A stretch of DNA of 64,000 nt, taken from the NCBI RefSeq assembly GCF_037042905.1, contig NC_087251.1:12650001-12714000 (forward strand), written 5' to 3'. Made by a program: the position numbers and the translations under genes. The notes beneath the pieces are model-generated. The model made no database searches, was not told where the DNA came from, and saw only the letters and a list, made by a program, of their open reading frames with translations. Within the stretch, counting starts at the first letter, position 1. Every line of letters begins with the position of its first letter. This document shows, piece after piece, positions 1-21,391 of the stretch. This stretch comes from Lytechinus pictus. Lineage: Eukaryota.

Positions 1-477
1 GTACATCGCTAACAACCGGAAATGAAATGCATTGACATCACCTTGCAGATCCGTATATCTACGGCAAAAAAGCAGTTGAAATTCGACGAAAAAATCTGCG
101 GAAAAACGTTAAAATCTCAGCTTTTTCGGACAGTATCGATGTCGATAGTAGCGCTTACCTTCGGTCAGAAGTTGATTTTCATTTGGGCATAAAATTCCAC
201 AGGATTGATGAAATTTAACGGGATTTTTTTTGATGGACAGACGACAATCGCACATTATAGAGAGCCTAAAATAATGTACTGAAAAACCGGATATGAATTG
301 CGCATTGCATTCTAGGTAATGTAAGGACTGTCCCTATTGGCAATCGGGGCTACAACATGACCGTCTTTGGTCGAAAGAGGGCCAGTGATCGATCGGTGAC
401 GATCATCGGGCGAAAGGAGCTTGTGTAAACAATCACCCCGGGCGGTCGTTGTAAAAACCGCGTAAAGAGAAAGTTAA
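1..477. mobile_element. Probable end of a DNA transposon truncated by the window edge (TTAA-associated)
   Basis: CpG-rich block unlike the surrounding DNA, ending in ...CCGCGTAAAGAGAAAG-TTAA. The other end is not in the window, so the TIR cannot be verified. Confidence 0.3.
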
Positions 478-738
478 GGGTTAGACAGCAATTTTGACAG
501 CTGGAAACAGGTGGTGGTCATAAAATGCTCTCGTTGAATGTCCATTCGTAATAGGTCCATGGTTGACCCAAGTGTGAACATCAAAATCCTGTTGTGTTAT
601 GGCTTCAAAACAATAACATTATTACAAGGATAGGATATACAGGTGAAACCACATTCATGGTCACCTTGAACAGTCATGGCCACCTTGAAATTGAGTTTGT
701 ACATGTATGTACAAGTAATGTACTTCCTTGGGACTTAA

Positions 739-1133
739 AGGTAAATGCTAGTTTTGGTAACGATATCAAAATGAGTTCGTACAGAATCCAATGAAATGAC
801 CACCAAAGTGTTGAATTGTATAAATAAAACGCATGTGCCAAAGGATTCTGCAAGAAATTGTGTAATTGCTGAGAAATCAGCACATAAGCACAGGATTCGG
901 GTAGAGCGTCGGGCCCGACGCTCAAAGCAATAATTATACACTGTCCCACGTGCGCTTATCTGTGTTGGGGAAGTTCAGTCTGAACATTTTTCAGCGTAGA
1001 TTTCAAGATTTCACAAAGTTCAGTTTATGTAACTGTACCAGATCTAGATCCTCGATGATATACTGACAATTAAGCCTGGTTTTACAGACTTTCTCATGAA
1101 ATCAGTGTTTACTGCAACTACTGGAATTTCTCT
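739..1133. mobile_element. Non-autonomous TTAA-target DNA transposon (Kolobok-like MITE)
   Basis: TTAA at 735-738 and 1134-1137; imperfect TIRs AGGTAAATGCTAGT / AGAGAAATTCCAGT; a diverged inverted copy lies at 6630-7009. Confidence 0.7.
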
Positions 1134-3644
1134 TTAAAGACTTCCTCTAAAAGAATGCCTTCAAAGAAAATGAAAAAACAGAGGCAAGTAAAAAGATATC
1201 TGATCAGTCAACAAACCTCATGGTCATAATAAAGTGTAAAATTCTAATTAGTTGCAATAAGATGACTATCAAAATGGAAACATGATGGACTTTATTAATG
1301 CACAGAGAAATGAATGACCCAGGGCTTTTCTTCAAAATAAATCATGGCATAATGAAAATAAAGAGATCAACAACAAAATTGCAAAAGCTAGCCAATACAG
1401 TTTTAGAAAGAGTAAATTTTCCAAATGCTAAAAATAAACAGAAAATGAAAAAAAAAGAGAAAAGCTTAACTCTGCATAATTTAGACTTGTCATCCCAGCA
1501 CACTGAAGATTATTAGTATTAAAAAATTTCTGTGCATATATTATTTTAAATACATAATAGTTTTTCAAGCAATATTGCTACTACTATTGATATCGCATTT
1601 GTAATATGATATATTCATACATTGTTGATTAAAATTAAAGTTCAATTATATACAGTACATAAATATAAAAAAGTTACATTGTATTCACTTCTCAGCAATC
1701 AAAATGTGAACTTTTCAAAGTTATAAAACCAACATGATGTGGTTCAGGGCCTGTTTAACAAACCTCACAGAACAATTTCCATTTCTATAACACATGTTTC
1801 TCCATGTATAGTAAACCATGATGATAGACTCCTAAAGAAATCATGGCCTAAGTCTAATAAGCACACATAAGGAGCTTTAACCTTTCCAAAATAAATCAAA
1901 TCATGCCATCTTCAACATGATGACCTAACTTCTAAATCTGATTGTATGAAAGTATGATATTGACGTTTGTTTTGATTCTCATCTACAAGATGATAAATGC
2001 TTTGCTTTGACTCCCAGTGAGCATGACAAAAGGAAGACAGCACTCAGAGCTTTCACATGATAAAGCCTCATTCTGGTGCAGAGAATTAGATTTAAACTGA
2101 TGCAGAATGGCTTCTGTCTGCTACTGGGTGTCCTACAGGTTCAAATACTGAACTGAAAAAAAAAATAATTCAGTAAAAATCAAAGGCATGAGTGCTGATA
2201 CTTCATCAGTGGAATGTACAAGTACAGTAGTTGCAAAAGGCTCCATCCAAGAAAATGATACATCGTGATTTTACATTTTTCACACAAAGATCCTGTGGCA
2301 TAATTAGAAAGTTGTATGAACTAGAAAATACCTCCAGAACATCACTTCCTATTGTCAATTCATTGTTATAGTATGTTTTCACAGAAACTAAATTCTACAC
2401 ATAAATACTGATGTCCAATGACTTTGCTCTAATGCTGTCAAATTATTTATAAAAAAAAAAACTCTTTACCCCAAGACCAGAAAGTCCTTGTAATATTATT
2501 TCCGAATGCTGTACTGATTCATTCATTCAGTCATTTAAATCGTTTCAATGTAGGACATACAATTTTTTTTTAAAGATGATTTGAGAATGTTTCATCTGAA
2601 TGCAGATCTTTGCAAAGATATGCATTTGCATGTAAATGGTTGCTGTCAATCTGCCATACACCTATACATCATATCAATGCAGGATAAGTTGGTACACACC
2701 CTAAAACACTCGTGTGAAAAGGTTCGTTATGAACATCTCAGGGATAAGTGTAGCATCCAACCTCTTGTCACCTCCATTCTGTTGGCTTGATTGATGATAG
2801 TTCAAGAGCTTGCTCAGAAAGTGTTTGCATAGTGCTTTGGTGTCTGGAAAGTATATACTCCCTTCCAAAGAAAGTCGGCAATGACTAGGGTACACTGACA
2901 AGTACTTAGACAGAGTTGTTCAAACAAGAACTTAAACATTGACTTTAAAACATGTTTATTCACCTCAGAAAGATATGAAGGCCAGATACATGTATGAAGG
3001 ACAGCAAAATGATATGCTTTCCAAATATTAATCATCCAAATAATTCAGGCTAAATAGATTTAAAATTAAGAGTACAGTTACATCTATGAGACCATAAATA
3101 GACTTAAAATTATATAAATTTAAAAAAACAAATTGAGCTTCTCCAAATTCAGACACTCTGTCCAAAAAATATTTTGAAATAGGCCTATACAGAACAGACT
3201 GCACTGACTGTATAGAATTCATCCTCAGATAATCCAATATTTAATAAAGAAATATCATTGCTCATTCATGAATGAGCTATCATATGGCATCAAAATAAAA
3301 TGATGAAGTCTTCTCAATATATGTGGATAAGAACCAGACATATGGCTACTGAGATAACTAATCAGAGATTACTTCATTAACCGATAATAACTGGATTTAT
3401 TGTAATATCAGATGGATTAAAAAGGATAAGCAATGATCCTCTTACTTGAGACAGTTTTTCTCAACCAGATTCTCCATGCCATATGGCAAGTGGCCACATG
3501 GATAACTCCCATTAAATCAAAATACAAATTGGTCTGGCAAAATATAACAAAAATGTATCTTGGGGAGGAGATTAAAAAAGATTTTTCTTTCATTCATAAT
3601 ACAAGTATATCAGACAAAGTATAATATAGACTGTATCTTTGAAT

Positions 3645-4194
3645 CCCGGGGGGCCACTTACATTGACGAGTGGATACCATGCGCGACCAAAAAAACACGT
3701 AAAAAGGATGTCCTTTTCACGATATGGCACGTTACGTACGTAACGTGATAAGGGTGTCAAAAACACAAAAATAATGAAAAAAGGGTGTCTATTTCGCTAG
3801 GAAAATTACGTGTTTAGGGTCGAATTTGCGGGAATGTTAAAACAAAATTAAAATGTTTTATAAAGGATGTTCATTTTGCCCCAACACTTCGTGTTTAGAG
3901 TCCGATTTGCGCGAGGTGAAGAAGGTGGGGTCGTACTAAACCAAATAAGGTAAAGCCGACGACCGAAGGACCCGTAACAATAAAACATTCCTGTACTTGT
4001 TTAGGGGTTCATTTCAGGGAATATTTGCCAAGAGTATCGTTTTGTTTCCAATACTTGTTAAGGGTAGGGTTTCACACGCCATTACTTGTTAAGGGGTGCA
4101 TTTTCAGAATATGGAAATTACGTGTTTAGGGTGCTTTTCGAGACCCCATAGTCGCGCATGGTATCCACTCGTGAATGGAAGTGGCCCCCCCGGG
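3645..4194. mobile_element. Non-autonomous DNA transposon with ~45-bp TIRs and 8-bp TSD
   Basis: TIR CCCGGGGGG(G)CCACTT(A/C)CATT(G/C)ACGAGTGGATACCATGCGCGAC at both ends; perfect TSD CTTTGAAT at 3637-3644 and 4195-4202. Confidence 0.92.
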
Positions 4195-5419
4195 CTTTGA
4201 ATAAAAAGTAATAAATTTACATGGGCAAGTATCTCATAGAAGATTGTCTTTTTTTTATCTATACATATATCATAGGAAAAAAAAGAAGAACATTCGTACA
4301 CAAATGTTAAACCCTTTCCTACATTGTAAGTGTTGGTTAAAAATCAATAATATGTACATGTATTGTGTGAAGTATTTTTACTTTCTCTTTAACTTTCAAA
4401 TTATGTTAAAAATGTTGTAGCTCTAGTACATTTTTATTGACTTATTCTATTTGAACACTAGATTCTAAATGAAATTTAGATTTGCAAGAAACCAATTTTG
4501 GTTTTAATGGAGTATTCTAGCTATCTTCCTTTTGCTTTTAAGTGAGGATATGATACAAGATTCCTTGCATGAATCAATTATAAAAAATTCAGCCATTTTG
4601 TGGAAGATTGATTATGTTTGGAGGGAGTATCTTTACCTCACTGCTTTTGATTACTCCAACAGACTCTTTTCAACCAGAACTCTTCTAACAAATTACCTCC
4701 ACCTTACTTAGGCCTCCCAGTCAAGTTCAAATATAGACTATTAAGTGACCTCTTTCAAGCAAATTAAAACACCATCCTCCTCCCTACAGCATCTACAGAC
4801 ATGCTAGCCCTGTTCCATCCTTCATTCATTTTCAATTTTGTCCTTTTTTCGAGCAACGTTATTCCTTTCCAAAGATACAAACAGAAAAAAATAGATTTGG
4901 GTCAAGTTTCTATGTGGATTGTGTATATCAACTCTGAGTGCAATATTATTGGTGAAAATGAGAAAGAAAAATGTAATAATCTTAGAAGCAAGGCTAATAA
5001 GGAATCCAAGCACACCCAATCATTGCAACCTCCTAGCCTAGGGGCCATTGTTGTACTTAAACTCTGCTCCCTGCTCGGCACCACATTTGCAAATATGATT
5101 AGTTTACCGTCGTGTATTTTTGCCTAATGCCCGGGACAGATGATTTAATTTTCAGATCATAATACGTGATTGGATTTCCACACACTTGAGGTTTCGGTTG
5201 GACTGACGGTCGGTCGGTCAAACGATGGCTTGGTTGTGGGGGGGAAATGATAGCCTGCTTGGCTAAATGAATGGTGGATGGTCAGAACTGGAGTCTGAAG
5301 ATGGGAATAATTGTTTTGGTGACAACTAACTCATTTTGAAATGAAAATCATTTGTTTCTGTTATTCTTACTCATCAGTGCTATCTATATCTTCTCGTTTA
5401 CAGATATTTGTCACATGCT

Positions 5420-5493
5420 TTTTTTTCTCTGTCTCCATGTCTTCATCTTCCTTCCTTCTTCCTTCCTCTCTTCCTCCTCCCCCCCCCCCCCCG

Positions 5494-5526
<33 letters not shown>

Positions 5527-5760
5527 TATATATCTGTCTATATATCTGCCTATCTCTACCCCTCTACATCTATACCTACTTCCCTCCTCCCATCCCCCTC
5601 TCTATCTCTCTCTTTCTGTCTTTCTCTGTCTCTCTCACTTACAGCCACCCCCCCCTCACTCATATCAAGACTGCCTACCATCCTTATTTTTTATATAGTA
5701 GATCTCTATCTTATATTCTATCCCAATCTCTATCTCTCGCCCATCCATTTGTATTTTCTG
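5420..5760. repeat. Pyrimidine-rich low-complexity tract with poly-C and (CT)n microsatellite
   Basis: (CT)n at ~5496-5524 and degenerate CT/CTAT repeats; explains the S/L/P-rich ORFs at 5341-5919. Confidence 0.85.
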
Positions 5761-6629
5761 TACTATCAAATTCAATTAAGAAGAGGACAACAAACATGGC
5801 AAATATCTATCTCATCATCACCTACAGAGAAAAAAAGTTTCATGGCTCATCGGCTACGTAGCTCACATAACATGCAGAGAGGCAGATGGGTGGACAGATG
5901 GATGGTGGCAAATAACTGATTTTCCTTCCAGTCTGCATGTGGGGGAGATGTATTTACATGAAAACTAACTGATATGAAACTTAAATCATACTAGAGGTTT
6001 ACAATTGGGTTACCTGATTACCACTGCTCAGTGCCCACACAAAAACTTTCAAGTTCGCTGCTGAAACTGAGAGTTCAACCTCTTGATATTTCTAACTGAT
6101 GATTTCATTAGTCAAATTTGGAAGAAGAAATCATGGAGAGGGTTCTAAATTAGGCAGCTATTTTTATTTTAAAACTCAAAGAAGTCCTCACAACTTGAGC
6201 AGCTATATTCCATACTTACATGTAAGCCTTTAAAACCTGAAAGTTTTTTTTACTAATGCAGGTTTTAATTTTCTTGTCATCCATGTATGTTTACATACTA
6301 GGTAAAGATGTTTCATGATTTCTATAAAACATTGCTCACCAAATGAAAGCAATACATTGGAACATACTTTGATATAAATACAATATAATAATTATCTCAT
6401 TTCCAACATGCCTTAAGTCTTTTTAAGGAATATAATTTCTATATCCACCAGTTTCATACCAATCCTTGAACTCATCTCATCCACCCACGTTTAAGTATTC
6501 TTCTTATAATACATGTAGTTGGTCCTTATTATCACATTAGTTTGTGTTTGCTAAATTCAAGCAACACGAAACAATGTGATTTTTAATAAGTCATATTAAA
6601 GAGTACATTAGTAACATTTTCAGACTTAA

Positions 6630-7009
6630 AGGTAAAAGAATGTAGTTGCAGCAAACAATTATTTCATGAGAAAGTCTTTGAAATTAAGTGTAAATTGTCA
6701 CCAATATATCATATATCTAGATCTGGTATCTTAATGTAAACTTATCTTTGTGAAATTAAGATAATGTTGATGAACACTAACACAGAAAAGCATATGTGGG
6801 ACAGTGTATTAATATTGCTTGGAAATAGTACACTGTCCCACATTTGATGGAATTCCGTGCTTATTTTACACATTTCTCAGCAATTACACATTTTCTTTCA
6901 GAGCCATGTGCCACATATTCTTTATTTATACATACAAACACTTAGGACTAATTTTCTTGGATTCTGTTCAAACTCATTTTAAGATTGTTTCAACAACTGG
7001 TATTTATCT
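6630..7009. mobile_element. Diverged inverted copy of the 739-1133 TTAA element
   Basis: TTAA-AGGTAAAAGAATGTAGTTGCAGCAAAC...TTTCATGAGAAAGTCT is the reverse complement of the 1085-1133 end; internal homology continues (TGGGACAGTGTAT, TTTCTCAGCAATTACAC). Confidence 0.75.
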
Positions 7010-7602
7010 TCAAGTAATTGTTTTGTCAAGTGTGTTGATTATATAAATTACATGTATAATGGATGGTATATGATGTGGTTTAATAGAAAAAGACACATAA
7101 AATAATAAGTATTAATGACTTTAGAGTTATAGTTTCACTTTCACGTTTTCTATCACATGTCATACATGTACCTGTCATCTAGATAATTCTGTCCTCTGTA
7201 ACTTGACAACTTAGTCTTAAATTATGTCATTTAGCATCTGGCAGAGTGCAAAGGTGGTTAGTGGGTAATTTATCCAGATTTGTGTCATACTCTTGACAAT
7301 GCTACAAGGATTTTCAATTCTTGTTTCATTTCGTTTATTGTTTCTGCAACTTTTTTTATAAAATATTCAACAACGATAAAAAAAAATGAGAACAAGGTTG
7401 TATTTTCTATAACAAAAATATTTCAAAATGTTGCAGGGGTTGCCACTTTATGACAAAGTCTGACCAAATTCCATTCCAAAACAAAATGATGAAGACTAAC
7501 TACAGTATATGGGAAAAAAGAAGAAGGAAAGAATGCATGTTACTTAACTTCAAGTTTACATACATGTATAGAGAAAGTTTACCATTTTTTTTATTTGAAT
7601 TT

Positions 7603-8379
7603 GGGGCAGTTCCACGGTTATGGAGTGACATTCAGAAACAAGTTTTTAGCATTCAAACAAAGATATCACCCATATTTAAAAAGTTATTTGCAAAGAAATG
7701 GTACCTGACAGGAGTTGCTTAAACCCACTTTTCAAATAATAATATTTTTTATTTTGATCCACTGAATTAATGAGATATGAATATTCATAATCATGGTTAC
7801 GGAGTGACGTAAAATGGACATGCATATTTGAGGAGAAAACTTATTGCTCAAACTCTGTGAACTTTAAATGGCTATCACAATGTTGAGTTATTGATTGGAT
7901 TCTATGTTGTTCTAGCTTTAATATGCTGCATTACATTAAAAAATTTGTGTATTTTTTCATTAATTACAACTTAAAAACATAAACCAATACCCGGTTACGG
8001 AGTGACGGTTACGGAATGACATCTGAAATATTCACACACAGGCAACGTAAAATGAACTTATATTTTAAAATTTTCTTTTTGATGTGATGTAAAATGATGA
8101 CCTTCAGATTATCCAAAAGAAAACTTGACAAAAAAAGCAAAAGTTTTCCGTTAAATTAAAATAAAGTAAAAAACAATATATGTAGTCCCATGTATAGAAT
8201 TTTTTGTATTGTTTGGATTCACCTATAAGGAGATGCATAAGAAAAAAATTGTGGCTAACTATGTTTCCCTTTTGTATCTATGAAAACACATATGGGTTTT
8301 AAGAGAAAATTTTGATCCAGATTTAAAATAGAGCCAATATAAATTTTTGGAAAATGTCCACTTTTGCTTGGAATTGCCC
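7603..8379. mobile_element. PIF/Harbinger-like MITE
   Basis: Termini GGGCAGTTCCA / TGGAATTGCCC flanked by TTT on each side; internal repeated motif GGTTACGGAGTGAC. Confidence 0.6.
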
Positions 8380-8694
8380 TTTGCCTATTCCTAAATCCAA
8401 CAATACCAGAGGTATCCAAAGATTTAAAGTAGCAAAATTTGTATACTAAAGTCAGGACCTACAGGTAAGCCTGTAAAGGTCTTGCCTATGTACCTATCTG
8501 ATTGGATCTTGGAGTTGTGGTAGTCCATGACATGGTTGGAAGAAATCTCAATACAAGTACTGTTCCAATCAAAATTACTAAATATTGAAAAGAAGGCAAA
8601 TGGCAATTATCTCTACTGGACTTGCAGCATCCTTATCTGCAGTGTACTTAATAACCCTTGTCCAAGAGAGCCTTTGAACTTGAAGAGGACTGGG

Positions 8695-8710
8695 TCAGAG
8701 ACACTTGTAC
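8695..8710 (-). CDS. Putative terminal coding exon of the 7TM gene (R-YKCL-stop), followed by 3' UTR
   Basis: Strong acceptor TTTATTCTTTCACAG|G after a 95-nt intron; the phase-2 join from exon 9041-8806 gives AG|G TAC AAG TGT CTC TGA. Confidence 0.45.
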
Positions 8711-8805
8711 CTGTGAAAGAATAAAAATTGCATGAGAGCAAGAAATGCTACATGCAATTTTTCATTTTTTTTTTATTTGAGTGTAAGAGATACCAAAGGT
8801 CTTAC

Positions 8806-9041
8806 CTTTCCAAGTAGACTGGCCTTGCTGCATCTTTGCCTGTTCCCCGATCCAAGCGGGTCTTGGAACTATTGGAGTGCCACAGGCATTCTATGATGTG
8901 CGGGTGAAAGCGTTTAGACTGAAGCCGTGAGAGAGTCAGGGCCTCGGTCTTCCACTGCTGGTAGTGGTCCGGATGGAACGTCTGCAGGAGACCTCTGCGA
9001 GGGGATCCGTTACTGGTCTGCCATTCTACTATGCCAAAGTT
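8806..9041 (-). CDS. Internal exon of the 7TM gene; kinase N-lobe-like segment
   Basis: Acceptor TTTGTTTGTTTTTTAG, donor AAG|GTAAGA. GC-rich, open in phase 0: NFGIVEWQTSNGSPRRGLLQTFHPDHYQQWKTEALTLSRLQSKRFHPHIIECLWHSNSSKTRLDRGTGKDAARPVYLE. Confidence 0.75.
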
Positions 9042-9226
9042 CTAAAAAACAAACAAATTTGTAAATATTAAGCTACAGTAGGATGAATAGAAACAAGCAG
9101 CAAGATAACAGATATATGTCATTCTGATAATGGTGGAAGCAGAGGGAAGACTGAGGAGAAGAGGATAGGGAGAGACAAGGTGGATGAAAAGAATATGAAG
9201 AAAAGAGGAGCAAGGGGAACAAAATG

Positions 9227-9278
9227 TTGATGATAATGAGGAGGAGGATTATAATAATGATGATGATGTTGATGATTA

Positions 9279-9318
<40 letters not shown>

Positions 9319-9338
9319 TATGATGATGATGATGATGT
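9227..9338. repeat. (ATG/GAT)n microsatellite
   Basis: Imperfect trinucleotide run; source of the poly-H and poly-M ORFs. Confidence 0.9.
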
Positions 9339-10836
9339 TGACGAAAGAAAAAAAAGGAGAGGAGAATAAGGAAAAGGGGAAAAGAGAAGAACAAATGAGG
9401 ACAATGAAGGCAAGAAGTAGAAAAATCTGAAATTTAAGAAAAATAAGAAGTAGAAAAAAATATACCGGGGGAATGACTTATGTTGACATGCAAAAAATTT
9501 ACTTGGGATTAAGATAGCAAAACCTAATTCCTGCATGTATTGGGAACATGGTCTAGTTTTACTTCCACTGGGTAATCACAAAACAGATGTAAATCTACCT
9601 TAGCAACCCACTTGTTGTCCTTGACAACAGGAAAGTGGAAAATTGTTGGCAAATCATGTGGCAACATCCTGCAGGAAACCTAGATACAGAGAATTATCAC
9701 TGTTGAAAGAATTAACTAAAAAAATCAGGAGCACTTAGGACCCAGCAAATTGGCATACTGAGAGGTAATTCTTTCTTCAACATTACCAATAACATGAGCA
9801 CATAAACATAGAAATTCATTAATAAAAAAAAAGACAGAAACAGAGAGAAATTGTTTAAGACCTGCTCAGAGATCGGTCCTCCAAGCAAAGTGAGGGATTA
9901 CAAGAATATTATCACATTATGGTTAAAATTGAGAAAGGAAGCAAATAAAATTAGAAAAGGAAATCAAGAAAAGAAAAGGAACAAAAATTTTAAAAAAGGC
10001 AAGCAAAAAAGTTTGAAGACTATAGACTTAGATAAAAGAGATAGTGAGGAAATAACAAGGAAAAAAGCATAAAAATATAATTTAATATAAAAAAGTTTTA
10101 CAAACATTTCATATCAAAGAAATACAAATGCTATTATTAGCAGAGAAGAAAAATGAAAAACTTTAATGTAAAAAAAAAAACAATTAGACACATGGAAATA
10201 CTTTTGATAAGACTTAAAAAATTAAATATAAGAGTATGAGAACCAACATTTGTATTCCTGTAAATAAATTAGTCTTTTGAATAAAGAAAAAAGGTCGGAC
10301 TAATATCAAATATTATTACTCCTAGGGCTCTCATCATAGGAATAAGTTGTCTGGCCTATATGCATGATGTATTATGCAATCATTATTAAACCAATTAGCC
10401 CAATCAATTATCGGTACTGATGACATACATAATGCACACAGAATGTAACCAAAGTACATTTTGCTCAACATTACCATGTACATGTACATGAACAGTTAAA
10501 ACCCAAAAGGGATTATTGTGTAAATCATTATCCTCAAAAGGTCCAAATGCCATTTATGTAATTTTCAGGAAAGTATTTGTTGGTGGTTTCAATTAAATTG
10601 GCTGAAAGGCTGATATTTTTTTTCACATAAAACAAATAAGAGAAGGGTTTCTAAAATACATGTTTATCATGGATAAGTCGATTTGAAATTCATGAATACA
10701 ATTTCCAACTGTCAAAATATCTAACTGTAAAGTTATTGAACTTTCATCAGTCATCATTCTCTTTTTCTAGCATGCAATGGATGCCAATGTATCAGACTGC
10801 TCCTCCTATTTTTTTTTAATGAGAAAAATTCCTTAC

Positions 10837-11054
10837 CTCTGGTCTTGCTTGCATGAGGACATGCTCTACCCACGATGCTTCACCCGGGGCGCGGTTGCTA
10901 CCCCTCGGCAAGGTATCATGAGTATGCGGCCCCATCCCGTTGGCTAGGGCTCCCTCTAAGTCTGTTCCCTTTCCATGGCCAGAAGCTCTAGAGGGTGGGA
11001 CTGTACGAGCAAGCTGACCAAGCCCGACACGTAAAGCACTGCCACCTTTCACAG
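10837..11054 (-). CDS. Internal exon of the 7TM gene (cytoplasmic linker)
   Basis: Acceptor TTTTTTATTTTCAG, donor GAG|GTAAGG; 218 nt, phase 1 to phase 0. Encodes AVKGGSALRVGLGQ...SWVEHVLMQARPE and matches the phases of both neighbouring exons. Confidence 0.75.
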
Positions 11055-14000
11055 CTGAAAATAAAAAAGTAGTAACTGAAAATGAGCTGAAATTTGTGAA
11101 AACTGATGAGCACTGGTGAAGTGTAATATATTCCAAGATCATTCTTAACTACTTTCATGAGGACTTTACAAATAGGAAATCATGAAGGAATTTTCTTAAA
11201 ACTTTCATTTAATTTCAGATCTGAACTAAATACAGGCCTTAAATTCCATTGCAACACAAGTGCATGATTCAAAAGGAACACGATCCTAAAATTCATTTCA
11301 GATTTTGAAATGAAAAAAGTCATCTTTCAGCTTAAATCTTTTGAAATTTAACCTGTGAAACTATGAAATCCCTCTGAGGTCAAAAGGCTTTCCATTCAGA
11401 GTTGACAGTGAGAACATTCCAAGACCTTTAGGTCATTCAACCACCCCATTAAATTTTGATGTTGTTCCACTTTTTCTTTCATTCTTGATGTTTTGTAGAC
11501 ACCCATTCTTGACAAACTCTTTGGGTGATCATTTTACACTTTGGTTTCCATTCCTACAACATGTCTGATATAAGTGATAATATTTCAATCCCATGAAAAT
11601 CATAGAGGGGCGTACATGATTGTAAGAAGAAGCACATGCTGTTTACGTGAAGTTAAAATACATTTGGAGATGTACTGTACGGTCATTCATTTTTCATAAC
11701 AGTGAACATCTTTCTAAAAAGACATGAAAGAGCAAATTCTTTCTTTTTTAGATTATCTTTCATGAACATGTACAGGTCTGCTACTGATTTTCTTTGAATC
11801 TCTTTTTAACATGACTTTTTTTTTATTCATTTTCATTTTATGATATAAATTAAGCCTATACTAGTATTATATAGTTCCAGGGATGGTGCCAGAGTTTTTT
11901 TAGAGTGGGGAGGGAGCATGACGTGAAAGTATAGGGAGTAAGCCTATAGTTCTACAACACTTCCTATAATTTTCAATTATTTGTCTTCTCAATCCCCCAA
12001 TTTATGCACACTGAAAATCATAGCTCAGTCACCCCCCCCCCCCCCCAACAAACCCACTTTGTGGTGCCACTTACATGTATGTAGTTCACTTTGCTTTATG
12101 GAATATTTACTATACATGGAATGATTAAAATATCCACACCTGAAACATTTCTACAGGTTTTATTCATGTTTAAAAGCAATTCTAAGGATTGGTGATTTGG
12201 TATGCCAACTGATTTGTTCTGTTTTCTCTTAAACAATTAAAATGTAGTATCCACATTTGTGTACTCTAGCCTGTACAAGGTGAGGTCATAGTACCAACAT
12301 TCCCAATTTTTATTTTCCAAATTTATATGGGTCTGCAATATGTGAGTTGTCTCAATAGCATTTATGGTCAGTTTAAAACAGCAGGGCACATGTCAGCAAC
12401 CTCGGTATTTGATTTTAGAAAGACAATAGGCCCATTGACTACCAGAAAAACCACAAAAAACCTGTAGATTACTCAGTCAGGTCTGTGGAATCTACAGACA
12501 ACCAGAATATTCAATGAGTCACACTCCAAGTCTAGATCATCAAAATCTGCATTCACCTTCTCTCATCAATAGTTTCCCTGATTTATAAGTTGTGTGTCAT
12601 TATCGACAACTTCCTGCGTAATGTTCAAAATTATACAGGTATTGCGGTCAACCATCATACTATGACATAACCAAGAAGCTATCACATAAACCTAGATGTG
12701 AAGGGGCACCCTTCTTGAAGTCTCAAGTGCCTGTTAACTTGAGGATAAGTGTCGGATCAGGGAGTTGTTCCAACCTTAGGAATGAAATGAAGAAGATACA
12801 TACAATATGTCTCTTCATTCATAACACAGTGACATTCACCTCTGAGACACTTGGTTATGATAGATCCAGATAAGGATTTTTAATTTCAAGGAGATCATAA
12901 CAAAGTTCCTTCATTGATCTGGTTGGAAACATTTTGGATCTATAAGTTTGACCAACTTTGTTATGGGGAAAAAGGTTGATAATAAAAATAAGATTCATAT
13001 TTGAGTAATCCTACAGTGCATTGTCACAGTCAAACAGCATGCAATTACAATGTACAGTGTACATGTACAGGTATGCTACAGTATCTTTGGTAATGACTGC
13101 AACAGATCTTGAAACTACATCGTTCTTGTCTACCTTTCTTTCTTTACAAAGGGCACCCAGTAGGCCTAAAGGCAGTATTACCAGGTATATGATACTCCCT
13201 GATATCACTGTCACACTCTAAACAAATGCACATCAGATTCAAAATCTATTACATACATTCTTTCTAATCAGTGAAATTTATAGGGAATACACACTTAATA
13301 GAATGATACAGAAACATACATGTACATGTAATGAAATTTTAAATAAAGTTTTGCAAGGAATCAATAGTGGATAAGCTCCATTTCACACAAGTAATTTCAA
13401 CAATTACTCAAATATTGATATTAGAATGAAGACCATGTGAAAGAGCTCTCAATCTTATAAGATCAGCTAAAGGCCTCAAATCTTTTCTTCTTTGATCAAA
13501 GCACATGGTGGTTCATGTGACTTTTAGCAAAGCAAACCCTGGATACCCTTTTTTACATGGCCATGCATGTGGACCTGATCATCTAGATACTGGTTGGGCA
13601 ATGAAATAGATACTTTGAAGAACAGTGTCTACTAATTTATGTAATATATACAATATATACTGGTAGAAATTTGTTAGCCCCTTATTGTGCTAATGATTTA
13701 CAATCCTCTCCATTAAAGAACTATCGAAAGTCTAATCTAAAGTTTGTAGTAAAAATGATGGTTATCAACTCAGTGCTTAAAATATGATTTTTAAAAATGT
13801 GCTTCACATTTCTACATTATACTATTTAAAAAAGTCTGAATGGCCTTCTGTCCACAACAAACTGAAGACACCTTGTGACCTCTCATATCAAATTGTCTAT
13901 GATATCCAAATGTAAACAAGCCTCTTCAAGATATTTGTAAGGGGTTCACTTGTCAAAACTAAGGTTCTTGTAAAGACAAATTGGGTAAAAATTAATTTCA

Positions 14001-14309
14001 GTATATTCTGTAATTAAAGAACTGTAAATACTCTCTACTTCATACAAACCCATTCACCTATCACGTACATGTATGGAATAACAAGGATGTTACTGTTGGT
14101 TTTGCCAACTTTTTGCATGAACAGAGCAAGATGATAAGAATTTTCAATGTACTGTGATCTACAAGGTATGTACAGTGTATGTAAAACAAATTGGCATAGA
14201 TCACAGCTGAAATGGGCCTTTACTCCTCCATGATAATATATTATAAATAATTCAAATCATACAGAATGGACCACAAGAACTGAAATCCACAAAAAAATAG
14301 AGTTGATAT

Positions 14310-15293
14310 TTAAACTAAACCATTCATGAAATCCATCACAAATATTGGCTCACCTTTCTTCCTGCAGGTATGCCAACAGGCTTCAAGAGTGGTGTCCTCC
14401 AGACCAGCATAGAAGACGTAGATGACTGGTCCGATGATCCCACTGAAAGGAAGCACTATCCCGAAAACCCACTGGAAAACCACCGTTGGAATACTCACAT
14501 TGAGATTAGCACCAAAGATGGCTACCACTCCAGGGAAGCGGAAGGCAACAGTGCTGAGCATCATGAGGCCAACACGTTTGACCAGAGCTGCATTCTTCTG
14601 GATGACTCTTGCTTCCATGGGTGTTACCCCTACAGTGTTGCGCTGTTGCTTGTGGAGCTGGCAGGCGGTGACGACGATGAGCATGAGCAGGATGATGATA
14701 GACAGACCATCCATGGAAGCCAGGACTAATGTGTAGATCCACATTGGTTGTTTCTCTAGCATGGTATGAAGTGGGAGACAGAGATAAACCTTGGATGTCT
14801 GTTGGGCTTCAGCAAACACAGGGAACGGTATCAGAGGCACTACAGCGAAGAGACCAACCAACACCCACTCTGCAATAAGAACGATCCTCAAGGCATTGAG
14901 GTACGACTTAAGGTTCTTGAATCGCCTTGGCAACAGGAGACGGAGAAGGAAGCTACTGGCTAAGGTCACCATGGTCCACATGCACATGGTGGACGTGGCA
15001 ACACCTACGAAGCTTGCAAAGCTACATAGAGCCTTGATGACAGTTTCATCTTGATGATGGCTTAGAACAATGTTTGTGGTGAGGATAACATAAGGATGGA
15101 GGCAGAGAAGGAGGTAACAGAAGAGTAAATTGTGAATAAGGAAAGCATCTACAGGTATCTCTCGCTTCCGGACCACACCCAAGATGAGGATAATGATGTT
15201 GACTACAAGTACAGCTGTTGCCACTGTCCACATGACAAAGGGAAGGACCTCATCTTGGGTCAAAGAATTGATTTCCTCTTGAGGTTCTTCCAT
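14310..15293 (-). CDS. Rhodopsin-class 7TM receptor domain, LGR/RXFP/GRL101-like, encoded in one exon; probably spliced at 14354 rather than read to the stop at 14310
   Basis: 327-aa ORF with seven hydrophobic segments. LGR-type hallmarks: TM1 VLPFVMW..VLVVN, TM3 LCSFASFV, ECL2 YLCLPLH, TM7 WVFGIVLPFSGIIGPVIY. Strong donor AAG|GTGAGC with the exon ending at 14354 (phase 1). Confidence 0.88.
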   Translation of the reverse strand: MEEPQEEINSLTQDEVLPFVMWTVATAVLVVNIIILILGVVRKREIPVDAFLIHNLLFCYLLLCLHPYVILTTNIVLSHHQDETVIKALCSFASFVGVATSTMCMWTMVTLASSFLLRLLLPRRFKNLKSYLNALRIVLIAEWVLVGLFAVVPLIPFPVFAEAQQTSKVYLCLPLHTMLEKQPMWIYTLVLASMDGLSIIILLMLIVVTACQLHKQQRNTVGVTPMEARVIQKNAALVKRVGLMMLSTVAFRFPGVVAIFGANLNVSIPTVVFQWVFGIVLPFSGIIGPVIYVFYAGLEDTTLEACWHTCRKKGEPIFVMDFMNGLV

Positions 15294-16673
15294 GGTTATC
15301 CTTTTAATACTACTATAATTGAGAAAAAAATAACACTCTACACTATGATGTTCTTCAAGAACAGGAGTACTGTCTAGTTAAATTGGGTTCATGAATAACA
15401 TTGTTTCTAAATCCTTGGATCCAATATGCTGGAGCCTCAAGGTCTCCTTTAATGAAACAGCTACCATCCCATGTCAATGTTTGATGCAGTTGCTTTCTTC
15501 ACAGTAATATCACAATATCAGCAGCACACATCACATTGTATGTGCAATCTTCCCTCTTTATACAAATGTTCTCCACAGCTCATTTAAACCAGAGTAAATC
15601 CATTTCAAAATCTGTGCCTCTTCTTTGTGAATCCATTCACATTATAACTTCCTGAGAGGGTTTCCTTTCATGGTTACTCTTTGGTTCTCTCCTCAACCAT
15701 CTGTATTTTAGTTTGCATCAGGTTAAATTTCAGATAAAACAATCCAGCTAAATCTTCCCTATGGTATAAGCCACTGCATCATACAATCCAACAAATTTAC
15801 CAAGCAAGATCCTAGGGGGATAAAAGGAGAAAACACATAAATGCAATAAAAAATAGACCATTTACATGTATATCATACAAATCAATTTCAACATCACAGA
15901 TTTATGGTTTCAAAAGACCAAGTCTAAAAACAACACTTTAGAAGTCATAGTTGTAACAAATATTTGTTCAAACAAAACAACAGCAAAAATATATTTTGCC
16001 ATTATAATGTGTATCATATTTAAATAACTTCCATTACACTGATCCTTTTATTCTGGCTGTAGGCAATAATACCTTACAAATTAAAGATACATGAAAAAAA
16101 GTCACATCATATATCTGCTCAGAAAAACAGCATGAAAGTATATACCGGTATATTAAATGGTATTAACTTTTATGAGATAAGCCTTTCCCTAAACTGCAGT
16201 TAAAAATAATCACTGACCTTTGAGGTACCATCATAAATATATTCCTTTCTCAATCAATTGTACATTTCTTCATCATCAGTACCAAACACTCACATGTTAA
16301 TCGAATTATTACATTAACAGAATAATAGGAATATTAAAACTCTAAATTCAAAATTACAATGAACAGTGTCAATGAACTGACTGAAGTTTGATAATAACCA
16401 GCAACAGTTTCTTATGAAGATCTGCTTTACCGCTTCTTCTAAGCGAAAGACAAAATTATGCCTGCCAGCAAGAAAATATTGTTCATTACTGAAGATTCTA
16501 GTGGAAAATATTACAAATTGCCAAACATATTAAAATTAAATCACATACATGTATCTTAAAAACATTCCAAGTGATGATGATCCCGGGATGATCATGTACA
16601 TGTAGCAAGAAAGGCCAAGGATGCCGGGCAAGGATGGATGTTCTTTAGGATGAAAAAGTTATACCACACTCAC

Positions 16674-17100
16674 CTAATAAACTCCCCGAAGGTACCGGGG
16701 GAACATTTCTTAGACGTGCAGGGCGATGCGAATCAATGCAACTTTGCAAGTGGTTCTCAACAAAACTGGTAGCCGGTAGCTCTCTTGATGATAAAGAATA
16801 TCCAGTCCACGTCTGTTTTAGTAACCAACAGTGAACAGATTTCAATAGTTGTGAATCAATACTTGGCGCAGAATGAACTTAATTGTTATTTTAACACTTA
16901 ACAGTGATGATAAATTCCAACAAAAATGCGAATGGTTACGCCTCCCCGAGCTCAGCTAGCGGCACACGCACCTCTCGTTCGATCGGCCAGCTGATTAACG
17001 GTGCGAAGCCCATTTCATGAATGAGCGTTGTGTGTACGGTGTCTACGGTACGTCTTCGCGTGGGGATTCCTCATAATAGGTCACACGCGAATCGCACGTG
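16674..17100 (-). promoter_or_regulatory. Probable promoter and non-coding first exon of the 7TM gene
   Basis: Local CpG-rich island (~16930-17100) with E-boxes CACGTG and CAGCTG, followed on the minus strand by a consensus donor TAG|GTGAGT at 16674/16673. Confidence 0.5.
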
Positions 17101-17846: not shown

Positions 17847-17990
<144 letters not shown>

Positions 17991-19415: not shown

Positions 19416-19446
<31 letters not shown>

Positions 19447-21281: not shown

Positions 21282-21391
21282 CACAGAGTCATACGTCGGC
21301 CGTACGTTTGACGTAAGAAGTACTCAAGGCATTCTCGAGTATCTTGGAATCAAACATACGCCGTAAGAAAGCTGTAAAATTTAGCTCCATC

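What the first reader, a model, noticed from the sequence alone, without database searches (positions are those of the whole stretch)
8695..15293. Candidate GPCR-pseudokinase fusion: LGR-like 7TM spliced to a kinase N-lobe-like tail
Seen: the apparently single-exon 7TM ORF has a strong donor (AAG|GTGAGC, exon end 14354, phase 1) just after TM7. It joins in frame to exon 11054-10837 (phase 1-0), exon 9041-8806 (phase 0-2) and a short terminal exon at 8710, giving about 469 aa. The tail reads ...ARPENFGIVEW...RRGLLQTF...QQWKTEALTLSRL...HPHIIECLW...PVYLE. Established: this order of motifs parallels kinase subdomains I-V (FGxV glycine loop, beta3 VAVK strand, alphaC glutamate, HPNI, beta5). GPCR-enzyme fusions such as oomycete GPCR-PIPKs exist, but they are not the standard architecture for LGR/RXFP receptors. 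Inference: the glycine loop and the beta3 lysine (Q here) are degenerate and I find no HRD/DFG C-lobe. This would therefore be a catalytically dead or truncated kinase-derived scaffold on a rhodopsin-class receptor.
Basis: partly seen in the sequence, partly recalled or inferred. Interest (0 to 1): 0.85.

Follow-up and report, generated by a model that had tools for sequence, protein, structure and literature searches.

The report
Sea urchin receptor fused to dead kinase
The window holds the first third of a real, spliced sea-urchin gene in which a hormone-receptor-like seven-helix membrane protein is fused to a complete but catalytically dead kinase domain, and the same fusion is found from sea anemones to amphioxus and molluscs.

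Summary
One transcript-derived contig joins them exactly. The proposed last exon at 8710 and the ~469-aa length are wrong. The gene leaves the window: three more exons lie 14 kb, 97 kb and 99 kb downstream. The product is 1252 aa, 92% identical to an old full-length S. purpuratus model (P0169).

The protein has almost no ectodomain. Its 7TM bundle is LGR-type (RXFP1 profile E 3.4e-25; FSHR Z 27.6). A linker leads to a whole TK-like kinase fold (c-Kit Z 22.8 in the amphioxus orthologue), split between helix F and helix H by a ~550-aa disordered insert.

In urchins the beta3 Lys is Gln, the HRD Asp is Arg and the DFG Asp is Asn, so it is a pseudokinase. The 7TM has also lost the DRY Arg and the NPxxY Asn.

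Relatives with the same layout occur in all four echinoderm classes sampled, hemichordates, amphioxus, molluscs and a brachiopod. The Nematostella relative still carries LDLa/LRR ectodomains and intact GPCR motifs.

The urchin fusion got one sentence in a 2023 paper, based on truncated models. A 2025 survey states that GPCR-TKs are absent from animals other than sponges.

The parts
16673..17022 (-). 5'UTR exon; its upstream end is not determined
   Evidence: Contigs X19 record 10 and X1 record 5 join 16673 to 15810. The border is GT-AG, give or take one shared G.
15294..15810 (-). 5'UTR part of the large exon. It has an in-frame stop at 15378-15380 upstream of the ATG, and 18 upstream ATGs when counted with the exon above.
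   Evidence: X19 record 10 is contiguous over 14354-15810. ORF limits come and the uORF count.
14354..15293 (-). Coding exon 1 (940 nt, residues 1-313): a ~20-aa N-terminus, seven TM helices and helix 8. Donor AAG|GTGAGC, phase 1.
   Evidence: RXFP1 7TM E 4.4e-6. Model of the 99%-identical P0165: helices at pLDDT ~85-90, FSHR Z 27.6.
10837..11054 (-). Coding exon 2 (218 nt, phase 1 to 0): linker AVKGGSALRVGLGQL...WVEHVLMQARPE, mostly low-confidence or disordered.
   Evidence: tblastn at 91% to P0001. Joined on both sides in X1 record 4. pLDDT below 50 for residues 332-366.
8806..9041 (-). Coding exon 3 (236 nt, phase 0 to 2): kinase N-lobe strands beta1-beta3, helix C and beta4 (NFGIVEW, GLLQTF, QQWKTEA, HPHIIECLW).
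   Evidence: Strands 372-381, 384-394 and 400-408 and helix 410-429 in the P0165 model. Foldseek hits to TrkA-type and JAK/TYK2 JH2 domains, E 2.5e-5 to 6e-5 over 166-178 columns.
1..8805 (-). First 8.8 kb of the 13,960-nt intron leading to coding exon 4 at C7:12644845-12644653 (outside the window). It contains repeats with very high RNA depth.
   Evidence: Depth table.
8695..8712 (-). Not supported.
   Evidence: The sequence is. No listed contig or joint uses it, and the X1 contig continues 2546 nt elsewhere. No orthologue ends this way.

Best explanation
The finding is the 5' third of one ~108-kb minus-strand gene. It has 6 coding exons plus a 5'UTR exon, and its introns measure 3.3, 1.8, 14.0, 82.6 and 0.44 kb. 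It encodes a 1252-aa membrane protein.

Shown:
(1) A short N-terminus with no LRR ectodomain.
(2) A rhodopsin-class 7TM bundle closest to LGR/relaxin/glycoprotein-hormone receptors.
(3) A ~70-aa linker.
(4) A complete tyrosine-kinase-like fold. Residues ~385-612 supply the N-lobe through helix F, and residues ~1161-1252 supply the closing helices with the CW..EP motif.
(5) A ~550-aa Ser/Gly/Arg/Asp-rich disordered insert between those two kinase segments. It carries short conserved motifs (CSxDSGxSS, SSLSKFYVRK).

In sea urchins the beta3 Lys is Gln, the HRD Asp is Arg, the DFG Asp is Asn and the glycine loop is degenerate.

Inferred: the domain cannot transfer phosphate and is a pseudokinase. 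Since the 7TM has also lost D2.50, the DRY Arg, the NPxxY Asn and (in urchins) W6.48, it probably does not activate G proteins in the canonical way. The most likely mode of action is a membrane-anchored pseudokinase scaffold or allosteric switch. The state of the 7TM bundle would be passed through helix 8 and the linker to the pseudokinase. Output would go through binding partners of the pseudokinase, the phosphorylatable insert and the C-terminus, as in JAK JH2 domains or ROR/RYK/PTK7-type receptor pseudokinases.

The family arose from a type-C (LDLa+LRR) LGR that acquired the kinase-like tail before cnidarians and bilaterians split. Bilaterian members later lost the ectodomain and the G-protein microswitches.
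For: Gene structure. The junctions 14354|11054 and 10837|9041 lie in one 4008-nt contig with 2546 nt more beyond 8806. That length equals exon 4 (193) + exon 5 (2070) + exon 6 with stop (102) + 181 nt. All borders are GT-AG and the phases fit. The 1252-aa product is 1155/1257 identical to P0169. No retrocopy exists in the 812-Mb assembly: there are only exon-wise hits on C7 and paralogues at 26% identity or less.

7TM. RXFP1 E 4.4e-6 with one sequence and 3.4e-25 with the family profile; TSHR 3e-17; C. elegans LGR 1e-15; LGR4 3e-13. FSHR Z 27.6, rmsd 3.3, 270 residues aligned.

Kinase. Pfam PK_Tyr_Ser-Thr is above cut-off in 9 of 10 relatives scanned; Nematostella scores 21.6 against 23.1. In the amphioxus orthologue model the 7TM, residues 356-592 and residues 924-994 are mostly at pLDDT 80-97, and residues 594-914 are below 35. 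c-Kit gives Z 22.8 with 243 residues aligned over model 354-997; LIMK1, ROS1, EphB1, IRAK4, JAK2 and RET give Z ~22.

Dead catalytic residues. Lck HRDLRAAN aligns to HTRLESTN. beta3 Lys is present in 13 of 16 members and is Gln in the 3 echinoids. The alphaC Glu is present in 16 of 16. The HRD Asp is present in 1 of 16 (Saccoglossus). The DFG Asp is present in 10 of 15.

Lost GPCR switches. 0 of 10 bilaterian members keep D2.50, R3.50 or N7.49. Nematostella keeps NLALAD, DRF, CWMP and NPVLY.

Constraint. Urchin against S. purpuratus: kinase core 223/228 identical, 7TM 288/311, insert 488/548, C-terminal module 87/92.

One origin. A single collinear BLASTP match of urchin 8-539 to Nematostella 2646-3192, E 1e-27. 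The Patella kinase core (E 1e-15) and C-terminal module (E 7e-5) are collinear with the urchin's.
Against: No biochemical data exist, so loss of catalysis and of G-protein coupling is inferred from motifs alone. Some pseudokinases lacking these residues still bind ATP or catalyse by other routes.

The junctions exon 3>4, 4>5 and 5>6 were not seen directly in this species. They rest on orthologous single-gene models, canonical sites, phases and the contig-length arithmetic.

The runs that gave the spliced contigs are only guessed to be RNA. The two raw RNA runs cover the exons at depth of about 1 or less, and the exon-2 bin has depth 0.

The full kinase fold, including the return of the C-terminal helices, was modelled on the amphioxus orthologue (22% identical overall), not on the urchin protein. 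A two-chain fold test of the urchin pieces gave no verdict (see Tried and rejected).

Pfam 7tm_1 does not match the urchin 7TM at E<=1. NCBI models of this species and its relatives end after exon 3 or 4, so a short isoform cannot be excluded.
Confidence: 0.75

Rival explanations
1. The kinase-like domain is still an enzyme. It would be an atypical kinase that uses other residues (as WNK or CASK do), so the protein is a true receptor kinase with seven TM helices.
For: The fold is complete. The alphaC Glu is invariant in 16 of 16 members, the beta3 Lys is kept in 13 of 16 and the DFG Asp in 10 of 15. Saccoglossus keeps Lys, Glu, HND, the catalytic-loop Asn and DFT together. The kinase core is the most conserved part between urchins, 223/228.
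Against: In the window's protein all three key residues are replaced at once (Lys to Gln, HRD Asp to Arg, DFG Asp to Asn), and there is no GxGxxG loop or APE motif. The catalytic Asp is missing in 15 of 16 members. High conservation is equally expected of a binding scaffold.
Confidence: 0.1
2. It is still a conventional G-protein- or arrestin-coupled GPCR. The kinase-like tail would only tune trafficking or desensitisation.
For: The 7TM fold is intact with the TM3-ECL2 Cys pair, and Tyr of the NPxxY position is kept in the 6 deuterostome members aligned. The Nematostella relative has all canonical microswitches plus an LGR ectodomain. The Ser-rich insert resembles a phosphorylation barcode region.
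Against: 0 of 10 bilaterian members keep D2.50, the DRY Arg or the NPxxY Asn, and urchins have Arg for W6.48. There is no ligand-binding ectodomain. Pfam 7tm_1 gives no match at E<=1.
Confidence: 0.12
3. The main product is the short form the reader and NCBI describe: 7TM plus an N-lobe stub of 465-545 aa, ending by read-through of the donors at 8806 or after exon 4. The long form would be rare.
For: NCBI models P0168 (465 aa), P0164 (465), P0165 (544), P0001 (545) and P0002 (543) end this way. X19 record 8 runs unspliced across the 8806 donor, covering 8229-8835.
Against: Both read-through tails differ between species straight after the donor. The donors are canonical and conserved. The X1 contig continues 2546 nt past 8806. 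Exons 5-6 are 89-95% identical between urchin genera. Full-length single models exist in at least 12 other species. A half kinase fold would be unstable.
Confidence: 0.05
4. These are two separate genes: a nested single-exon GPCR inside a kinase-like host gene. The joined contig would be an assembly chimera.
For: The current S. purpuratus annotation splits the locus into a 545-aa and a 742-aa model, P0001 and P0167. Exon-1-only ORFs occur in public assemblies: P0009, P0011 and P0170-P0175.
Against: Two independent contigs join exon 1 to the next exons at exact GT-AG sites with 0 mismatches. The frame is kept across all junctions. The same 7TM-kinase order is found in cnidarian, deuterostome and lophotrochozoan proteins.
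Confidence: 0.03

Closest known systems
Type-C leucine-rich-repeat GPCRs (RXFP1/RXFP2, snail GRL101) and other LGRs (FSHR, TSHR, LHCGR, LGR4-6)
   Same: These are the best sequence and fold matches of the 7TM: RXFP1 profile E 3.4e-25, FSHR Z 27.6, LGR4 Z 25.6. The TM3-ECL2 cysteines and the CLPL motif are shared. The Nematostella family member has LDLa, LRR and 7tm_1 like GRL101.
   Different: The urchin protein has no LRR/LDLa ectodomain, lacks the DRY Arg, D2.50 and the NPxxY Asn, and carries a ~940-aa cytoplasmic kinase-like extension that no described LGR has.
GPCR-TK of choanoflagellates and sponges; GPCR-TKL/K of acanthoecid choanoflagellates, oomycetes and amoebozoans (eLife 2025, PMC12716839; van den Hoogen and Govers 2018 as cited there)
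   Same: A 7TM followed by a C-terminal protein-kinase-type domain of TK/TKL affinity. None has been characterised functionally (passages read).
   Different: [quoted passage not shown] This family is in cnidarians and many bilaterians. Its 7TM is LGR-derived rhodopsin-class, the kinase is degenerate and it is split by a large insert. Homology to the sponge and choanoflagellate fusions was not tested here.
'GPCR-type transmembrane kinases' listed for sea urchins (CSBJ 2023, PMC10463195)
   Same: It is the same gene. The paper's alignment and table hold XP_030855453.1 (= P0001, 545 aa, 7 TM, PF07714 at 462-527) and XP_041469348.1. The text says they nest in the TK clade.
   Different: The mention is one sentence and rests on the truncated 545-aa models. 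In the passages and supplement hits that I saw, nothing is said about dead catalytic residues, the full length, the LGR origin or the wider distribution.
Pseudokinase modules in receptors and JAKs (JAK/TYK2 JH2; ROR, RYK, PTK7; kinase-homology domain of receptor guanylyl cyclases)
   Same: A TK-like fold without catalytic residues, tethered to a membrane receptor. TYK2 and JAK2 JH2 are among the best Foldseek hits of the urchin model (E ~3e-5, 166-178 columns). The scaffold/allosteric mode of action is the one proposed here.
   Different: Those sit on single-pass receptors or cytosolic kinases and pair with an active enzyme domain or co-receptor. Here the anchor is a 7TM bundle and no active partner domain is in the protein.
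Split-kinase RTKs with a kinase insert (KIT, PDGFR, VEGFR)
   Same: The kinase fold is interrupted by a disordered, phosphorylatable insert. c-Kit is the top VIA kinase match (Z 22.8).
   Different: From my recall, the KIT/PDGFR insert lies between the lobes near helix D and is under 100 aa. Here the insert is ~320-800 aa and lies after helix F.

Membership tests
Rhodopsin-class (class A) GPCR, LGR subfamily | Seven-helix bundle with class A topology | tested here: met
   Model of P0165 (308/311 identical to the window's 7TM): FSHR Z 27.6, rmsd 3.3, 270 aligned; TSHR 26.4; LGR4 25.6.
Rhodopsin-class (class A) GPCR, LGR subfamily | Significant sequence similarity of the 7TM to LGRs | tested here: met
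   phmmer against RXFP1 E 4.4e-6 and FSHR 1.1e-3. Family profile: RXFP1 3.4e-25, TSHR 3.3e-17, LGR4 3.3e-13.
Rhodopsin-class (class A) GPCR, LGR subfamily | Match to Pfam 7tm_1 (PF00001) | tested here: not met
   No family at E<=1 for the window's 7TM or for P0001/P0002. The Nematostella member does match, E 1.4e-33.
Rhodopsin-class (class A) GPCR, LGR subfamily | Leucine-rich-repeat (with or without LDLa) ectodomain | tested here: not met
   About 20 residues precede TM1, and an in-frame stop at 15378-15380 lies in the same exon upstream of the ATG. LRR and LDLa are present only in Nematostella P0017.
Rhodopsin-class (class A) GPCR, LGR subfamily | Activation microswitches D2.50, D/E-R-Y, CWxP, NPxxY (motif names recalled) | tested here: not met
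   The urchin has Y, SSF, FRFP and GPVIY at these columns. 0 of 10 bilaterian members keep D2.50, R3.50 or N7.49. Nematostella and the three LGR-like controls keep the conserved Arg (D-R in three, H-R in the fourth) and NPxxY.
Eukaryotic protein kinase superfamily (TK/TKL-like) | Match to Pfam kinase models above the curated cut-off | tested here: met
   PK_Tyr_Ser-Thr 42.5-45 bits (cut-off 23.1) and Pkinase 33.3-33.5 bits (cut-off 31.7) for P0001/P0169. Exon 3 alone gives no hit.
Eukaryotic protein kinase superfamily (TK/TKL-like) | Complete bilobal kinase fold | tested here: met
   Amphioxus orthologue model: c-Kit Z 22.8, 243 of 279 aligned, model range 354-997. Urchin partial model: TrkA-type and JAK/TYK2 JH2 hits at E 2.5e-5 to 6e-5. 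The full fold was not modelled on the urchin protein itself (1252 aa exceeds the size limit).
Eukaryotic protein kinase superfamily (TK/TKL-like) | Catalytic residues: beta3 Lys, HRD Asp, DFG Asp, Gly-rich loop | tested here: not met
   The window's protein has GLLQTF, HTR, NFT and NFGIVEW. It is therefore filed as a pseudokinase, not a kinase.
Eukaryotic protein kinase superfamily (TK/TKL-like) | Placement in the TK group rather than the TKL group | tested here: inconclusive
   The best profile hits mix TK (TYK2 6.7e-15, JAK2, Eph, Lck) and TKL (LIMK1 2.5e-14, RAF1 1.5e-11). The catalytic loop H-x-x-L-x-A/S-T-N and the CW..EP motif look TK-like (recalled pattern). No labelled tree was built. 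PMC10463195 places it in the TK clade.
GPCR-PIPK (oomycete/Dictyostelium RpkA type) | C-terminal phosphatidylinositol-phosphate kinase domain | tested here: not met
   Only protein-kinase families were found in the cytoplasmic part of the 10 relatives scanned.
GPCR-TK of sponges and choanoflagellates | Common descent of the 7TM and TK domains with those fusions | not tested
   No sponge or choanoflagellate sequence was among the 30 of 150 hits whose names I looked up. The eLife supplementary sequence files were not opened.

The most novel reading that the evidence does not exclude
This is an ancient eumetazoan signalling device that has gone unnoticed: a relaxin/GRL101-type LGR hard-wired to a JAK-JH2-like pseudokinase. 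The cnidarian form is still a complete hormone-type receptor (LDLa, LRR, DRF, NPVLY) with the pseudokinase attached. Bilaterian invertebrates then stripped off the ectodomain and the G-protein switches and kept the 7TM-pseudokinase core under strong constraint. That would make it a G-protein-independent 7TM pathway. It would work through a pseudokinase scaffold and a phospho-regulated disordered insert, which carries a DSGxxS degron-like motif and ends in a possible PDZ ligand. It appears missing from the animals where signalling has been studied most: no vertebrate, arthropod or nematode member was seen among the hits I named. Because insulin/relaxin-family peptides use both RTKs and type-C LGRs, the fusion could mark an old physical link between the two receptor classes.
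Probability: 0.3. Interest if true: 0.85.

Novelty: new variant of a known kind. Interest (0 to 1): 0.68.

Why it matters
GPCR-kinase fusions are known from protists, choanoflagellates and sponges. None has been studied functionally, and the latest survey states that they are absent from other animals (passages read).

This locus shows that a rhodopsin-class, LGR-derived 7TM fused to a TK-like pseudokinase exists in many animal groups. It is kept in cnidarians, echinoderms, hemichordates, cephalochordates, molluscs and a brachiopod. Between sea-urchin genera the dead kinase core is its most conserved part (98% identical).

The family gives experimentally tractable systems for asking how a 7TM bundle can signal without G proteins and what a receptor-tethered pseudokinase does. 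Urchin embryos, Nematostella and amphioxus are all available. The family also offers a natural series from a 'complete' receptor (Nematostella) to a stripped one (urchin), and from a nearly intact catalytic set (Saccoglossus) to a fully dead one (echinoids).

There is a practical point too. Current NCBI models of this gene in four urchin species are truncated or split because of an 82.6-kb intron.

Tried and rejected
1. Pfam on the three window exons alone found 0 families at E<=1. The kinase signal appears only when exon 4 is included.

2. A word-index search for longer relatives of the tail scored none of 605 candidates. This was a false blank: the exhaustive search found the long relatives.

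3. tblastn of five long relatives against the 50 kb downstream of the window found only exon 4. Exons 5 and 6 were found only by the whole-genome search and lie 82.6 kb further on.

4. Complex prediction of urchin residues 375-640 with 1150-1254 gave no verdict: runs 0.01, 0.81 and 0.02, with the median under the mark, the controls not run and my alignment not used. It counts neither for nor against.

5. The look-up of sequencing runs listed no RNA holder on record. The holders X1-X18 are only guessed to be RNA. The raw RNA runs X21 and X24 gave depth of about 1 or less on the exons and 0 on the exon-2 bin, and no gene junction appeared among the listed joints (292 more joints were not shown).

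6. VIA second look at the urchin model: the 50 rows shown are all GPCRs, so that list says nothing about the kinase part. Foldseek was used for that part instead.

7. Rfam on window 1-20000 gave 0 matches.

8. The search of earlier findings had nothing on this genome.

9. Literature. There were no hits for six gene or protein accession terms. Nothing relevant was found in passages of the oyster kinome paper, the P. lividus genome paper, the cnidarian LGR review or Veenstra 2021. Searches turned up only the two papers cited. The Bradham 2006 sea-urchin kinome paper is not in the library and was not seen.

11. A processed retrocopy as the source of the spliced contigs is rejected, because no contiguous genomic match exists.

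Full report
WHAT IS IN THE WINDOW. The minus-strand ORF 14310-15377 carries an ATG at 15293 and seven hydrophobic helices. tblastn with the two closest public proteins places the next coding pieces at 11055-10837 and 9041-8805. Those proteins are P0001 from S. purpuratus (545 aa, 93% identical) and P0002 from Diadema (543 aa, 81%); they were 2 of 3 hits at E<=0.001 among 5082 candidates.

TRANSCRIPT EVIDENCE. I laid four public runs on window 1-20000. X1 record 4, a 4008-nt contig at depth 10.9, lies on three pieces:
- 8806-9041 (record positions 2547-2782);
- 10837-11054 (2783-3000);
- 14354-15360 (3001-4008).
The pieces follow one another without a gap in the record. The first two have 0 mismatches and the third has 2 mismatches and 1 gap.

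X19 record 10 (2262 nt) covers 16673-17022 joined to 14354-15810. It has 454 further nt, which equals 218+236. X1 record 5 also joins 16673 to 15810. So the '7TM ORF' sits in the second exon of the mRNA, and a 5'UTR exon lies at 16673-17022. An in-frame stop at 15378-15380 in the same exon rules out an N-terminal extension.

X1 and X19 are Logan contigs whose RNA nature is only guessed. Intron-less joins at exact GT-AG sites still require spliced RNA or a retrocopy. The 812-Mb assembly holds no retrocopy: it shows only exon-wise hits on contig C7 and paralogues at 26% identity or less. The raw RNA runs X21 and X24 are too thin to add anything, with depth of about 1 or less on the exons and 0 on the exon-2 bin.

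THE GENE LEAVES THE WINDOW. X1 record 4 has 2546 nt beyond 8806 that do not lie in the window. The orthologues continue after ...PVYLE with RYICTTYYQHG...LHENNVVHTRLESTNIMVGGNPE. The whole-genome search finds this at C7:12644845-12644653, 5.2 kb before the window start (window = C7:12650001-12714000). That exon ends at a strong donor, GAG|GTGAGG.

The NCBI models P0001, P0002 and P0165 read through this donor into different junk tails. P0168 and P0164 (465 aa) instead read through the 8806 donor. P0168 is identical to the window's product over exons 1-3.

An exhaustive HMMER search gave 253 hits at E<=0.001, 9 of them at E<=1e-30. It brought up long relatives. The cluster look-up then showed an older S. 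purpuratus model, P0169 (1254 aa), that continues ...GGNPE|NKVKAVISNFTSAIDY....

tblastn with five relatives found nothing more in the next 50 kb. A genome search with the Acanthaster protein pointed to C7:12.56 Mb. There P0169 aligns to a single 2070-nt exon (C7:12562073-12560004, 89.5% identical) and to a last exon (12559561-12559460 including the stop, 97%).

The assembled model has six coding exons, all with GT-AG borders and compatible phases. It has a 3759-nt CDS encoding 1252 aa, 1155/1257 identical to P0169. The introns are 3,299, 1,795, 13,960, 82,579 and 442 nt. Exons 4-6 sum to 2365 nt, which leaves 181 nt of 3'UTR in the 2546-nt remainder of the contig. The fit is good but indirect.

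THE PROTEIN: 7TM. Pfam finds no 7tm_1 at E<=1. A PDB sequence search does hit the RXFP1 7TM (E 4.4e-6) and FSHR. The nine-member family profile gives RXFP1 3.4e-25, TSHR 3.3e-17, a C. elegans LGR 1e-15, LGR4 3.3e-13 and LHCGR 4e-12.

I made an AlphaFold2 model of P0165, which is identical to the window's product at 308/311 positions in the 7TM and 73/73 in the linker. The helices come out at pLDDT ~85-90. It matches FSHR at Z 27.6 (rmsd 3.3, 270 aligned), TSHR at 26.4 and LGR4 at 25.6, with many other class A receptors at Z 24-25.

I aligned ten bilaterian members with the Nematostella relative and three canonical LGR-like proteins. The TM3 and ECL2 cysteines (CLPL) are kept. The microswitch positions are not; the motif names here are recalled, the residues are read from the alignment:
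- D2.50 is Y in urchins.
- D-R-Y is S-S-F.
- CWxP is FRFP.
- NPxxY is GPVIY.
None of the 10 bilaterian members keeps D2.50, R3.50 or N7.49.

THE PROTEIN: KINASE-LIKE PART. Pfam PK_Tyr_Ser-Thr scores 42.5-45 bits against a cut-off of 23.1 in P0001 and P0169. It is above cut-off in 9 of the 10 relatives scanned.

The P0165 model shows, for the exon-3 product, strands 372-381, 384-394 and 400-408 (the last carrying GLLQTF). Helix C is 410-429 and carries the QQWKTEA glutamate. Strand beta4 follows, and then from exon 4 come beta5, helices D and E and the catalytic-loop strands. Foldseek aligns 166-178 columns of this part to a Trk kinase and to JAK1, JAK2 and TYK2 JH2 pseudokinase domains, with E from 2.5e-5 to 6e-5.

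The urchin protein is too long to fold whole, so I folded the 1001-aa amphioxus orthologue P0007 with a 21-row family alignment. The 7TM, residues 356-592 and residues 924-994 are mostly at pLDDT 80-97. Residues 594-914 are below 35. VIA-align matches model 354-997 to c-Kit (Z 22.8, rmsd 4.0, 243 of 279 residues). It matches the same span to LIMK1, ROS1, EphB1, Csk, IRAK4, JAK2, RET, SYK and ACK1 at Z ~22. The kinase fold is therefore whole, and its closing helices are supplied by the conserved C-terminal module (...LLNILKACWSREPCPEANDVHCMLDNC... in the urchin).

In the window's protein the core is ~385-612 and the closing module is ~1161-1252. Between them lie ~548 residues rich in Ser, Gly, Arg and Asp. 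The profile hits mix TK and TKL kinases (TYK2, LIMK1, RAF1, JAK2, Eph), so I leave the group open.

DEAD CATALYTIC SITE. Lck's HRDLRAANILV aligns with HTRLESTNIMV. Across 16 members:
- The beta3 Lys is present in 13 and is Gln in the three echinoids.
- The alphaC Glu is present in 16.
- The HRD Asp is present in 1 (Saccoglossus, HND).
- The DFG Asp is present in 10 of the 15 that reach it; it is NFT in the window's protein, NFS in Acanthaster, EFG in Antedon and GF in Nematostella.
There is no GxGxxG loop. The window's protein has lost all three key residues at once.

The core is nevertheless the best-conserved region against S. purpuratus: 223/228 identical, compared with 288/311 for the 7TM, 69/73 for the linker, 488/548 for the insert and 87/92 for the C-terminal module. 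That pattern argues for a constrained non-catalytic role.

THE FAMILY. I looked up names for 30 of the 150 listed hits. Members with the same order of 7TM, kinase-like core, long insert and C-terminal module come from these groups:
- Echinoids: S. purpuratus, two Lytechinus species and Diadema.
- Other echinoderms: a sea star (Acanthaster, 1324 aa), a crinoid (Antedon), a sea cucumber (Holothuria).
- Hemichordates: Saccoglossus, Ptychodera.
- Amphioxus, where the protein is annotated 'RXFP2'.
- Bivalves: Argopecten, Pinctada, Solemya.
- Gastropods: Patella, Biomphalaria, Plakobranchus.
- A brachiopod: Lingula.

Hydrophobic segments lie almost entirely within the first ~300 residues in all 11 members tested; two members show one extra hydrophobic stretch inside the kinase-like part. 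The Patella kinase core (E 1e-15) and C-terminal module (E 7e-5) are collinear with the urchin's. Three of the named hits were unrelated fungal or oomycete kinases, and several hits had no name. No vertebrate, arthropod or nematode name appeared, but that is not a test of absence.

The Nematostella protein P0017 (3282 aa) is the key relative. Its ectodomain holds C-type lectin, F5/8C, three LDLa, five MAM, LamG, fn2, pentaxin, CUB and LRR domains. A 7tm_1 domain follows (E 1.4e-33), then a compact kinase-like tail without the insert (PK_Tyr 21.6 bits, just under the cut-off). One collinear BLASTP match joins urchin 8-539 to P0017 2646-3192 (E 1e-27). The family-specific strings (W..E, NII.YCWH, VVHN, the CW-type last helices) are shared. 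P0017 keeps NLALAD, DRF, CWMP and NPVLY.

The simplest history is this. A type-C LGR gained the kinase-like tail before the cnidarian-bilaterian split. Bilaterian lines then lost the ectodomain and the G-protein switches and gained the insert. Echinoids went furthest in eroding the ATP site.

HOW IT LIKELY WORKS. The architecture, the splice chain in the window, the folds, the residue losses and the conservation are shown. The rest is inferred: no phosphotransfer, probably no canonical G-protein activation, and signalling by conformation and binding.

I put about 0.9 on the structural description. I put about 0.85 on catalytic death in urchins. I put about 0.5 on the scaffold/allosteric mechanism as worded.

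The insert carries motifs kept across phyla: CSxDSGxSS in echinoderms and Lingula, with D-S invariant in A1, and SSLSKFYVRK. Most non-echinoderm members end in [ST]-[ED]-[LI], which resembles a class I PDZ ligand (recalled consensus). These are leads only.

WHAT IS ALREADY IN PRINT. PMC10463195 (2023; passages and supplement hits read) lists XP_030855453.1 and XP_041469348.1 as GPCR-type transmembrane kinases. [quoted passage not shown] That is this gene, in its truncated form.

PMC12716839 (2025; passages read) describes GPCR-TKL/K and GPCR-TK fusions. [quoted passage not shown]

Searches found nothing on the full-length protein, its pseudokinase nature or its distribution. The library lacks many subscription papers, and I did not open the eLife supplementary files.

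VERDICT. The extent was underestimated: this is a whole split pseudokinase on an LGR-derived 7TM, belonging to an old animal family. I rate it a new variant of a known kind (GPCR-kinase fusions), with interest 0.68.

Noticed in passing
window 668-1334, 3336-4669, 6004-7337, 18010-20000: These islands lie inside the gene's introns. Their summed RNA/contig depth is very high in all four runs (hundreds to more than 10,000, against ~10 for the gene's exons), with many partial and two-place alignments. They look like dispersed repeats or transposon-derived transcripts. There was no Rfam match in 1-20000.
   Followed up: partly
window 22842-23243 and 25093-25547 (also 20770-21282): Two arrays of one 15-nt satellite lie in opposite orientation: the unit GGTAAAAATGGCAGA and its reverse complement, 27 and 30 copies, ~1.85 kb apart. 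A third 15-nt array (GGACAATTACCCCCC) lies at 20770-21282. An ORF through one array gives a spurious Pentapeptide_3 hit.
   Followed up: no
window 15294-17022 (5'UTR): The 867-nt spliced 5'UTR seen in the contigs holds 18 upstream ATGs, all with short uORFs of 1-29 codons. This hints at translational control.
   Followed up: no
window 9224-9341: An (ATG)n-type trinucleotide array (39 copies, 81% matches) lies in intron 2. It gives long His/Ile/Met-rich pseudo-ORFs on both strands. It is not coding.
   Followed up: no
C7:12559460-12562073 (loci L014) and public models P0001, P0167, P0168, P0164, P0165, P0002: Current NCBI models of this gene in four urchin species are truncated at read-through donors or split in two (545 + 742 aa in S. 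purpuratus). The likely cause is the 82.6-kb intron. An older S. purpuratus model (P0169, 1254 aa) had it whole.
   Followed up: yes
own product residues 845-855, 1004-1014, 1248-1252 (encoded outside the window, L014): Short conserved motifs lie in the disordered insert and at the C-terminus. CSSDSGISS resembles a DSGxxS phosphodegron. SSLSKFYVRKK is another kept motif. The C-terminus reads [ST]-[ED]-[LI] in hemichordates, amphioxus and molluscs and TEVPL in urchins, which may be a PDZ ligand.
   Followed up: partly
P0155 (Saccoglossus) in alignments A1: Saccoglossus is the only member that keeps the beta3 Lys, alphaC Glu, HND, catalytic-loop Asn and DFT together. It might still be an active kinase and would be a natural contrast to the urchin protein.
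   Followed up: no
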